Shown piece by piece: positions 60,801 to 64,000 of a DNA stretch of 64,000 nucleotides (the first letter of the stretch is position 1; every line of letters begins with the position of its first letter). The translations under genes were made by a program, and so were the position numbers. The notes beneath the pieces are model-generated. The model was given only the letters and a program-made list of their open reading frames with translations. It had not been told where the DNA came from and did not search any database. This stretch comes from Eledone cirrhosa. Taxonomy: Eukaryota. Location: the NCBI GenBank assembly GCA_964016885.1, contig OZ024745.1, positions 8,370,001 through 8,434,000 of the forward strand, in the 5' to 3' direction.

Positions 60801-61052
60801 ATATATATATATATATATATATATATATATATATATATATATATATATATATATATATATATATATATATAGTTAGGAAAGCAGAAAATTGCTATATATA
60901 TATATATATATATATATATACACACCAATACTACTAACTTACCACCATTTCATAAAAGTATTGGAAGCCTTCAAAACCTCTACTGTGCACTATGGAATAG
61001 AAGGGTCCAACTTATAGACAACTGTAATGGCCGCCACGTGAATTAAGATGTT

Positions 61053-61668
61053 GTAAGGATAGCAGTGGGTGTAGCATGGGGACCATTGTATTACAGGAAT
61101 AATCTAGAGTAAGGATAGCAGTGAGTGTAGCATGGGGACCATTGTATTACAGGAATAATCTAGAGTAAGGATAGCAGTGAGTGTAGCATGGGGACCATTG
61201 TATTACAGGAATAATCTAAAGTAAGGATGGCAGTGAGTGTAGCATGGGGACCATTGTATTACAGGAATAATCTAAAGTAAGGATGGCAGTGAGTGTAGCA
61301 TGGGGACCATTGTATTAGAGGAATAATCTGGAGTAAGGATAGCAGTGAGTGTAGCATGGGGACCATTGTATTACAGGAATAATCTAGAGTAAGGATAGCA
61401 GTGAGTGTAGCATGGGGACCATTGTATTACAGGGATAATCTAGAGTAAAGATAACAGTGAGTGTAGCATGGGGACCATTGTATTACAGGAATAATCTAGA
61501 GTAAGGATAACAGTGAGTGTAGCATGGGGACCATTGTATTACAGGAATAATCTAGAGTAAGGATAACAGTGAGTGTAGCATGGGGACCATTGTATTACAG
61601 GAATAATCTAGAGTAAGGATAGTAGTGAGTGTAGCATGGGGAACATTGTATTACAGGAATAATCTAGA
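61053..61668. repeat. 56-bp minisatellite, 11 copies
   Basis: Same unit as 51150-51989; 616 bp / 56 = 11. Confidence 0.97.
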
Positions 61669-61880
61669 GCAGAGATTTCAGTTTCCGTCTTCCCAGTTTG
61701 AGGAAGAGAATACACGTCAAGATACCATGCAGGGCAGCATCTTGGGGCTGTCAGGTTTGCTAAGAGAACTTCATAACAACACTATGATGTGTATGTGTCA
61801 TATATATATATATATATATATATATATATATATATATATATATATATATATATATATATATATATATATATATATATATA

Positions 61881-62075
61881 GAGGAACAAGTAAGACCCCG
61901 ACGGCTGAGCTCAAGCCGTTTCGACGGCTAATTCTGGACCCTGAATTAGCCGTCGAAACGGCTTGAGCTCAGCCGTCGGGGTCGTACTTGTTCCTATTAC
62001 CCACTCTACTACCCTAAGTATTGAGTACTTTGGTGCGTTATGGTCCACCTGGTTCCTTACCACATTTCCTTCGTT
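61881..62075. mobile_element. 195-bp fold-back element inserted in (TA)n
   Basis: Arms 61882-61934 / 61943-61995 (1 mismatch, 8-nt loop) plus an 80-bp tail. Absent from the paralogous TA run at 52121-52162. Confidence 0.85.
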
Positions 62076-63050
62076 ATATATATATATATATATATATATA
62101 TATATATATATATATATATATATATATATATATATATATATATATATGAAAGACGTAAAATAAGAAAATTATTAAAATTAACTTACTTACTAAACTTTCA
62201 CTCCAACTAATTAGTTTCTGAAAGGGAATAAACATGGTTTCCAAATGGAAAACATAGAGAAGCCGTTTCGTCATCAGGAAGTCTGTTCTCAGCTAAGTTA
62301 CCAGGCGATGCGTGAACACAGGGAACTTATACAAAAATAATTCAGTGGATGGAAAAAAGCAAGTATGGACTAAATTCCAAGATATTGAAACCTATATATT
62401 TGCTAGCATAGGTATGCATCTGTATATATATGTTGGTAAATATACTAATTCTTTATATATATATATATATATATATATATATATATATATATATATATAT
62501 ATATATATATATATATATATATATATGAATATTACACATATACATACATATATATATTAATATTACACATACACATACGCATACTCACACTCACACGCGA
62601 GTGTGAGTGTGTGAGTGTGACAGTATGGAAGTGTTTTATGGATGTAAGATGGTGGATCCATTTAACACGGGAAACAAACATTAAGAGCTGTAAAGTTTTT
62701 CTTGTCCCTTCTTCCACTCCAGGGGGAATCAGTTTGCTGATTCCATCACAAAGACGACCACAAGATTACATCAACAACATTTATATTAACATTAACAATA
62801 ACACTAGCATAATATATATATATATATATATACATATATATACTGTATATATGTATATATATATATATGTATATATATATATATATATATATATATATAT
62901 ATATGTATATATATATATATATATATATATATATATATATATATATATATATATATATATATATATGTGTGTGTATATATATATATATATATATATATAT
63001 ATATATATATATAATATATAAGATCAAAAGATGGTTAAAAGAGTTCCATG

Positions 63051-63121
63051 TATTTTATTATGCGCATTTCAAAAACAAATATTATCATGTAATAATATTT
63101 GTGTTTTCATCAGATAAAATA
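63051..63121 (-). ncRNA. Type-I hammerhead ribozyme (family F, mirror copy)
   Basis: Reverse complement of 63162-63232 with two differences in stem II. Confidence 0.88.
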
Positions 63122-63161
63122 GGAAGATATGATATGAAGGTTAAAAAATATCATATCTTCC

Positions 63162-63232
63162 TATTTTATCTGATGAAAACACAAATGTTATTACATGATG
63201 ATATTTGTTTTTGAAATGCGCATAATAAAATA
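63162..63232 (+). ncRNA. Type-I hammerhead ribozyme (family F)
   Basis: TATTTTAT-CTGATGA-AAACACAAATGTTATT acat GATGATATTTGTTTTT-GAAA-TGCGCA-TA-ATAAAATA: perfect 8-bp stem I and palindromic stem III. Confidence 0.9.
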
Positions 63233-64000
63233 CATGGAACTCTTTTAACCATCTTTTGATCTTATATATTATGTTTACTCCAGTCCTACAAACTGTAGAG
63301 TGCTTCTTATCCGATATCTGCATTGCTTTATTGTACTACAATAAAACTTACCTCCTACATTATATACGATTTCTTTCTTATATCAAAGTTTAATGGGCTT
63401 CCACTGATGATTTATAAGCTCCCACCTAAATATATTCTTATATGAATATATATTAGGCTTCTACATAAACTGGAAATATTCTCCCAACTTGTAGAAAACT
63501 TATAATGAAACAATTATTTGGAAAGAGAGATGTATTTTAACTTTAATTATATCTCATAAAATAATACAACTGGTTTTTCCACGTTATACATATTGTTAGC
63601 ACCCCAAACACTTAAATTGGGTTTATATTTAAATATAACCTAATGTTTGTTGAGTGAGATGGATACCAGTCAGAGTTTAGTTTTAAACTATCTCTGTTAT
63701 TGTATTAAATATATATATATATATATATATATATATATATATGTATACATATATATATATATGTATATATATATATATATATATATATATATATATATAT
63801 ATATATATATATATATATATATATATATATATATATATGTATATATATATATATATATATATATATATATATATATATATATATATATATGTGTGTGTGT
63901 GTATATATATATATATGTATATATATAAATACACACACATATATATGTGTGTGTGTGCATATATCTATATGCATACGTATACATATATATATATATATAT

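What the first reader, a model, noticed from the sequence alone, without database searches (positions are those of the whole stretch)
60924..64000. Segmental duplication provides empty versus filled sites: fold-back elements insert into (TA)n
Seen: 51020-53130 and 60924-64000 are collinear paralogs. The TA run at 52121-52162 is empty, while its paralog holds the 195-bp fold-back element (61881-62075) with long TA runs on both sides. The TA-rich tract at 52803-53060 is empty, while its paralog holds the 700-bp double-hammerhead element (63011-63709). Inference: two independent post-duplication insertions, both in (TA)n and both with an inverted end, point to TA targeting and to palindrome formation during integration.
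Basis: partly seen in the sequence, partly recalled or inferred. Interest (0 to 1): 0.75.

Follow-up and report, generated by a model that had tools for sequence, protein, structure and literature searches.

The report
Penelope-like retroelement ends in TA repeats
A duplicated stretch shows the same TA repeats with and without short inserts; the inserts match the shortened ends of two very abundant Penelope-like jumping genes and a 1-kb repeat with a predicted ribozyme, and they likely landed there by the TA-seeking, head-to-head insertion already described for this class.

Summary
The duplication and both empty/filled contrasts are real. There are three inserts, not two. The 195-bp insert (B) and the first half of the '700-bp element' (C, 63011-63360) are 5'-truncated 3' ends of two Penelope-like element (PLE) families. 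Each has about 11,000 3' ends in this genome, and long copies carry an RT plus C-terminal endonuclease ORF with most Hydra-clade motifs. The second half (D, 63369-63709) is a separate 1-kb non-coding hammerhead-motif repeat with no inverted arm (0 of 30). TA targeting holds family-wide (27-28 of 30 versus about 10% background). The two arms of one insertion share subfamily variants and junctions vary, so inverted ends likely form at insertion. TA bias, inverted arm and one-sided tail are all published PLE traits (PMC8557442, PMC3846280, PMC11167929), and this scan met the pattern before in this and other genomes. Open point: the paralogs give conflicting ages (flanks 1/619 different, a shared older insert 12/306), so post-duplication timing is likely but unproven. 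Verdict: new families of a known kind; a neat local illustration.

The parts
51021..53760 (+). Paralog copy 1 (empty at both sites); continuous with a 22-bp minisatellite on the left and a long CAC tract on the right, so probably the donor (inference)
60924..64000 (+). Paralog copy 2 (filled); ends about 620 bp past the window; TA runs at both boundaries
52121..52162 (.). Site 1, empty: 42-bp TA run with one interruption
61800..61880 (.). Site 1 left TA run (81 bp)
61882..62074 (+). Insert B: inverted arm (61882-~61937), direct arm (~61940-61995) holding only the 3' half of a hammerhead motif, and a 79-nt one-sided tail; 3' end of PLE family B
62075..62147 (.). Site 1 right TA run (73 bp)
52163..52468 (-). 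Older family-E insert shared by both paralogs (copy 1); type I hammerhead motif on the minus strand; no parent ORF sought
62148..62453 (-). Family-E insert, copy 2; 12 differences from copy 1, 6 private to each
52803..53060 (.). Site 2, empty: interrupted TA-rich tract
63011..63360 (+). Insert C: inverted arm (63011-~63135), direct arm (~63148-63272), tail to 63360; 3' end of PLE family C
63162..63232 (+). Predicted type I hammerhead of C: 8-bp stem I, CUGAUGA core, long stem II, palindromic stem III; predicted cut after 63224; mirrored on the minus strand in the inverted arm (core at 63113)
63369..63709 (+). Insert D: 5'-truncated 3' third of a 1.0-kb non-coding unit found as monomers and partial tandems; no inverted arm
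63398..63523 (+). Predicted type I hammerhead of D with a 96-nt stem II; predicted cut after 63518; this copy carries a rare change in stem III (63516)

Best explanation
Inserts B and C match the truncated 3' ends of two high-copy Penelope-like families that likely belong to the Hydra clade, and D is a non-coding repeat with a predicted hammerhead, likely moved by such an enzyme; all three likely entered the TA tracts of paralog copy 2 after the duplication. Shown: the match to ORF-bearing parents, the TA flanks, the fixed 3' end, the inverted arm that stops at a fixed internal TA-like tract, and the one-sided tail. Inferred mechanism: the endonuclease nicks (TA)n, which reads the same on both strands; each cut end primes reverse transcription of element RNA, one at the usual 3' start and one at an internal site 80-95 nt upstream; the two short cDNAs join head to head at short palindromes or microhomologies; the centre of the palindrome is often trimmed. 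C probably landed in the TA run at D's 5' junction after D, because each insertion leaves TA on both sides as a new target.
For: Parents: a natural full-length C copy (L280) has direct pseudo-LTRs 3.7 kb apart and an unbroken 798-aa ORF with DKT, FDIASYY, YRDDG, CxCx5C, CxxC..E and CxH. Long B-family copies carry the same kind of RT and endonuclease upstream, 39-47% identical to C's protein. Hydra is defined by these motifs, a canonical hammerhead and (TA)n insertion (PMC8557442 section 11; an octopus member, Hydra-1_Obim, is listed with (TA)n). Copy number: 10,941 (B), 11,515 (C), 1,043 (D) exact pattern matches, control 0. TA at the 3' end in the first 30 matches by position: B 28/30, C 27/30, D 22/30 (the other 8 run into the next tandem unit), background 9-11%. 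Inverted arm within 1.5 kb: B 24/30, C 16/30; 22 of 24 B arms end in TA. Arms of one insertion are more alike than shuffled pairs: B 1.41 vs 2.40 mismatches (27 of 30 copies alignable), C 3.2 vs 5.33 (20 of 30 with both arms), 0 of 10,000 permutations each; B haplotypes agree in 20 of 24 position-ordered pairs. Arm lengths run from about 40 bp to over 1 kb and some include ORF. In vitro, a PLE protein cuts and extends both target strands and starts copying at two internal sites that bound the tail (PMC11167929). Window B and C direct arms match other copies at 100% over 134 and 213 bp, so they are young.
Against: Arm concordance could also come from later gene conversion between close inverted repeats. 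Some sites are discordant: in the similarity-ranked B set one position near the junction is A/T in 16 of 27 and never T/A, and another has G only in the direct arm in 6 of 7, which fits an inherited hairpin master. Ten of 16 C fold-backs share one length class (404-433 bp), which fits either a preferred join site or a master. No Pfam family or solved structure matched the C protein itself; the clade call rests on motifs, not a tree, and the RWK motif reads RWI (C) and RWR (B). No parent ORF was found for D (1 of 59 loci had an ORF upstream, and it was an inverted family-C fragment). Timing: D has 4 rare changes in 337 bp, more than the flanks differ (1/619), so by the flank clock D could predate the duplication. 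In PMC11167929 the start sites are not homologous to the cut DNA, unlike the TA-like internal site inferred here.
Confidence: 0.88

Rival explanations
1. Same elements, but the inverted arm forms by snap-back: one truncated cDNA folds on a short palindrome and copies itself until it reaches the internal TA-like tract, which anneals to the target.
For: Symmetric junctions at the native CATATG palindrome in several C copies (L230, L237, L243); near-equal reach of both arms in 16 of 22 abutting B pairs; self-priming was proposed for such junctions in PMC3846280 (passage).
Against: Inverted arms that reach further than the direct arm (window C, L221, L224, L244) need a later deletion; arms from different subfamilies occur (L098, L118).
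Confidence: 0.3
2. The short fold-backs spread as ready-made non-autonomous hairpin masters, so no palindrome was made at these two insertions.
For: Recurrent one-sided variants in B; narrow length classes for B (160-208 bp) and C (404-433 bp).
Against: Junction sequences differ in nearly every B copy; the same subfamily haplotype occurs in both arms of short and long C copies (L116, L121 and L120).
Confidence: 0.15
3. The inserts are older than the duplication: copy 1 lost them by TA-to-TA deletion, or the two copies come from different alleles, one empty and one filled.
For: Flanks differ at only 1 of 619 bp while D has 4 rare changes in 337 bp; hairpins between direct TA repeats are prone to slippage deletion (general knowledge, recalled).
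Against: Two separate precise losses are needed; the shared E insert has 6 private changes on each side (about 2.5%), older than B and C, which match other copies at 100% (Poisson P about 0.035 and 0.005).
Confidence: 0.15
4. The duplication is an assembly artefact (two haplotypes placed in tandem).
For: Near-identical flanks; read depth could not be calibrated.
Against: Both copies have their own flanks on each side, about 7 kb of unrelated sequence lies between them, and minisatellite copy number and the E insert differ.
Confidence: 0.05

Closest known systems
Hydra clade of C-terminal EN+ Penelope-like elements, e.g. Hydra-1_Obim (Craig et al. 2021, PMC8557442; sections 11 and 15, passages and supplement rows seen)
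   Same: Single RT-endonuclease ORF, DKT motif, CxCx5C linker, CxxC and CxH motifs, type I hammerhead, (TA)n insertion.
   Different: About 11,000 3' ends per family here; C's unit is 3.7 kb with clear pseudo-LTRs (Hydra generally under 3 kb; Hydra-1_Obim 2,507 bp, no pLTR noted); RWK reads RWI/RWR; B's parent hammerhead has a U3-A8 core.
PLE insertion units with an inverted 5'-truncated copy and one-sided tail (PMC3846280 and PMC8557442, passages; PAc in vitro, PMC11167929, main text)
   Same: Head-to-head arrangement, palindromes at the junction, tail on one end only, AT-rich targets.
   Different: Tails here are about 80-95 nt rather than 30-40 nt, and the tail-less arm stops at an internal TA-like tract.
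Non-LTR retrozymes (PMC7229834, passages; bioRxiv 10.64898/2026.07.22.740005, first fifth and passages)
   Same: Family D is non-coding, tandem, and carries one type I hammerhead motif per unit.
   Different: Unit is 1.0 kb rather than about 300 bp; only partial dimers were seen; fixed 3' end in (TA)n; RNA not tested.

Membership tests
Hydra-clade PLE (parents of B and C) | Single ORF with RT and C-terminal GIY-YIG-type endonuclease | tested here: met
   L280: unbroken 798 aa, RT motifs then endonuclease motifs; homologs give weak GIY-YIG hits; B parent ORF pieces. Pfam gave no relevant hit for L280 itself.
Hydra-clade PLE (parents of B and C) | DKG changed to DKT | tested here: met
   DKT at residue 123 of the C protein; 59 of 61 long homologs have DK[TS]. 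Not seen in the broken B-parent copies examined.
Hydra-clade PLE (parents of B and C) | RWK motif | tested here: inconclusive
   RWI in C, RWR in B: RW kept, K not.
Hydra-clade PLE (parents of B and C) | CxCx5C linker; CxxC and CxH in the endonuclease | tested here: met
   Present in both parents.
Hydra-clade PLE (parents of B and C) | CCHH motif absent | tested here: inconclusive
   Only one cysteine inside the GIY-YIG-like core of C; judged from positions, not from an alignment to Neptune or Nematis.
Hydra-clade PLE (parents of B and C) | Type I hammerhead motif near the 3' end | tested here: met
   Canonical in C; U3-A8 core in 17 of 19 B-parent motifs, a natural covariant per PMC3088659 (passage). 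Motif only; cleavage untested. The window's B copy lacks the 5' half.
Hydra-clade PLE (parents of B and C) | Insertion into (TA)n | tested here: met
   28/30 and 27/30 versus 9-11% background.
Hydra-clade PLE (parents of B and C) | Generally short (<3 kb) | tested here: not met
   C repeat unit is 3.7 kb; the paper gives this as a tendency.
Hydra-clade PLE (parents of B and C) | RT phylogeny groups with Hydra | not tested
   Published Hydra proteins were seen only as supplement text and compared by eye.
PLE insertion unit | Inverted 5'-truncated copy with a tail on one end only | tested here: met
   B 24/30 and C 16/30 within 1.5 kb; multi-kb examples L126, L127, L282.
Non-LTR retrozyme (family D) | Non-coding tandem repeat with a type I hammerhead in each unit | tested here: met
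   Longest stop-free frame 83 codons; motif; 13 pairs about 1 kb apart among the first 100 listed matches, no triples.
Non-LTR retrozyme (family D) | Monomer of about 300 bp | tested here: not met
   Unit is 1.0 kb.
Non-LTR retrozyme (family D) | Expressed as self-cleaved linear and circular RNA | not testable with these tools
   No raw RNA run of this organism was offered.

The most novel reading that the evidence does not exclude
Hydra-type PLEs are primed on both strands of the self-complementary (TA)n, with the second start set by a TA-like tract inside the RNA, and their staggered nicks duplicate long parts of the TA tract. Each of the more than 20,000 insertions would then lengthen and split a microsatellite and create new targets, making these elements a main engine of this genome's TA load. 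This locus fits: 42 bp empty versus 81 + 73 bp filled, a repeated GT landmark on both sides of site 2, and C stacked on D.
Probability: 0.3. Interest if true: 0.55.

Novelty: new member of a known kind. Interest (0 to 1): 0.27.

Why it matters
The kind of element and its habits are published, so the main value is modest: two very abundant Hydra-type families and a 1-kb retrozyme-like unit, plus a rare side-by-side view of a (TA)n site before and after insertion, which is normally unreadable because target duplications vanish in microsatellites. If the double-priming and tract-duplication reading holds, it would bear on two questions that Craig et al. (PMC8557442, section 15) list as open: how PLE inverted ends form and why they favour microsatellites. 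The intact L280 ORF is a ready substrate for such an assay.

Tried and rejected
Rfam at gathering threshold found nothing in the window; hammerheads were found by a motif scan of my own. A pattern for B's native hammerhead with a canonical core gave 11 matches: 7 chance hits in an RTE-type LINE and 4 altered B fold-backs; a second pattern gave junction artefacts and chimeras. Pfam and PDB sequence searches gave no relevant hit for C-family proteins. No third paralog exists for use as outgroup. Laying contigs and RAD reads could not phase the two copies or test polymorphism, because repeats swamp the inserts; runs with small word shares were not used as evidence. No closer donor was found for either E copy among 40 scored candidates (best 97%), so ectopic conversion does not explain their divergence. 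The C half of the arm-reach script picked wrong hits and was discarded; C junctions were read. Left and right TA run lengths do not correlate (rho 0.07, 115 inserts). The landmark-duplication test (6 of 115 versus 0.6% of shuffled pairs) does not control for periodic arrays; only L155 and L275 are clean cases. Rejected: MITE or DNA transposon (no terminal inverted pair at both ends, ORF-bearing RT parents), and a single 'double-hammerhead' element. Literature searches found no paper on these particular families; that is not proof of absence, and bioRxiv supplements were not visible.

Full report
Observation. The window lies on contig C5 of a 3.0-Gb, microsatellite-rich genome. Positions 51021-~53760 and 60924-64000 are collinear, and copy 2 continues about 620 bp past the window before ending at a TA run. 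The unique blocks differ at 0/129, 0/130, 1/284 and 0/76 bases; one of them occurs only at these two places. Site 1 is a 42-bp TA run in copy 1 and TA81 + insert + TA73 in copy 2. Site 2 is an interrupted TA tract in copy 1 and holds 63011-63709 in copy 2. Both fold-backs are far beyond shuffled controls.

Three inserts. A genome search with 63140-63705 returned other copies matching only 63369-63709, which continue upstream into a different 1.0-kb unit. A search with 63145-63360 returned a separate family that ends at 63360 in TA. So the '700-bp element' is C (63011-63360) plus D (63369-63709), with about 8 nt of TA-like sequence between them. The block between the two sites (52163-52468, 62148-62453) is itself a copy of a fourth family, E, with a hammerhead motif on the minus strand.

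Identity of B and C. Long C copies run upstream into an ORF. One natural copy, L280, has direct pseudo-LTRs 3.7 kb apart and an unbroken 798-aa ORF with RWI, DKT, FDIASYY, YRDDG, CxCx5C, CxxC..E and CxH. For B, sequence read from the longest inverted arms gave a pattern with 1,819 matches; several of the first 30 carry the same type of RT and endonuclease upstream, 39-47% identical to the C protein. Craig et al. 2021 (PMC8557442; I saw section 11, section 15, passages and supplement rows) define the Hydra clade by RWK, DKT, a CxCx5C linker, CxxC and CxH, no CCHH, canonical hammerheads and (TA)n insertion, and list an octopus member. Most features are met; RWK and length are not exact, and no tree was built. 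Pfam and PDB did not recognise the protein; database homologs carry weak GIY-YIG and RT-type annotations.

Hammerheads. C has a canonical type I motif at 63162-63232, mirrored in its inverted arm. D has one with a 96-nt stem II, and this copy has a rare change in stem III. B's parent has a U3-A8 core in 17 of 19 motifs, a natural covariant reported in PMC3088659 (passage); the window's B copy keeps only the 3' half. None was tested for cleavage.

TA targeting. Exact patterns give 10,941 B, 11,515 C and 1,043 D matches, controls 0. Among the first 30 matches by position, a TA run follows the 3' end in 28 (B), 27 (C) and 22 (D); two of C's three exceptions run on into the element body and all eight of D's run into the next unit. 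Background is 9-11%. The empty paralog shows TA was there without the insert.

Inverted ends. An inverted arm lies within 1.5 kb in 24 of 30 B copies (one of them probably a separate insertion), 16 of 30 C copies and 0 of 30 D copies. In B and C it stops at a fixed internal TA-like tract, leaving a tail of 79 and about 90-98 nt on the other arm. Arms of one insertion share subfamily variants more than shuffled pairs do, junctions differ from copy to copy, and arms reach from tens of bases to kilobases. This favours formation at each insertion. Against it: later conversion between arms could mimic the sharing; two B positions are repeatedly discordant in one direction; lengths cluster. Arms from different subfamilies (L098, L118) and inverted arms longer than the direct arm (window C, L221, L224, L244) favour two primed copies over a simple snap-back. 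The arrangement is published (PMC8557442; PMC3846280, passages), and a PLE protein cuts and extends both strands and starts at two internal sites bounding the tail in vitro (PMC11167929, main text).

Family D. It is non-coding (longest open frame 83 codons), occurs as 5'-truncated monomers and partial dimers, and 17 of 24 truncated 5' ends abut TA. No parent ORF was found in 59 loci. It works like a non-LTR retrozyme (PMC7229834, passages; bioRxiv 10.64898/2026.07.22.740005, first fifth and passages) but is three times the usual size.

Timing. The shared E insert differs at 12 of 306 bases against 1 of 543 in the flanks tested (Fisher p = 4e-5), with 6 private changes on each side, and each copy is closer to other E copies (97%) than to its paralog (95%). 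By that clock B and C, which match other copies at 100%, are younger than the split. By the flank clock D, with 4 rare changes in 337 bp, could be older. An older duplication with later conversion of the flanks fits best, but this is inference; contigs and RAD reads could not settle it.

Target duplication. Filled site 1 has 154 bp of TA against 42 bp, while an insert-free neighbouring run differs only about 50 versus 74 bp, and a GT landmark appears on both sides of site 2 but once in copy 1. Across 115 short inserts, 6 share a landmark of 10 or more letters on both flanks against 0.6% of shuffled pairs, two of them clean. This is a lead only.

Verdict. Real, correctly noticed in outline, and explained by known PLE biology. 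Earlier notes of this scan describe the same architecture in this and other genomes; none concerned this place or family D's sequence. New families of a known kind; interest 0.27.

Noticed in passing
window 52163-52468 vs 62148-62453: The shared family-E insert is about 25 times more diverged between paralogs than the flanks, with 6 private changes on each side; unexplained.
   Followed up: partly
window 60893-60923 and about 620 bp past the window end: Paralog copy 2 has TA runs at both boundaries while the matching donor boundaries do not; it may itself have been captured at a TA break or moved in trans by a PLE enzyme.
   Followed up: partly
L162, L172, L255, L282: The B-family parent hammerhead has a U3-A8 core in 17 of 19 motifs found.
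   Followed up: partly
L280:1771-4164 (minus): Natural unbroken 798-aa Hydra-type ORF between direct pseudo-LTRs, with an asparagine-rich linker between RT and endonuclease, like the N-rich inserts described in PMC3846280.
   Followed up: partly
L023:1842-2841; window 63369-63709: 1.0-kb retrozyme-like unit, at least 1,043 3' ends, seen only as monomers and partial dimers; 12 of 24 5' truncations fall within 100 nt 3' of the predicted cleavage site.
   Followed up: partly
window 42442-43436, 43919-44079, 55787-56153, 57050-57217, 47878-48014: Further fold-back or single ends next to TA runs from other families; the first, second, third and fourth carry type I hammerhead motifs.
   Followed up: no
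window 60776-60893, 59218-59261, 59273-59328: Short perfect palindromes centred on a TA run (flank repeated inverted on the far side of the run).
   Followed up: no
window 22638-22727: A second, internally deleted family-B copy between TA runs.
   Followed up: no
window 1-19187: Satellite of about 72-bp units, 271 copies, running off the window start.
   Followed up: no
L155, L275: B insertions with the same non-TA landmark in both flanking TA tracts, suggesting target duplications of tens of bases.
   Followed up: partly
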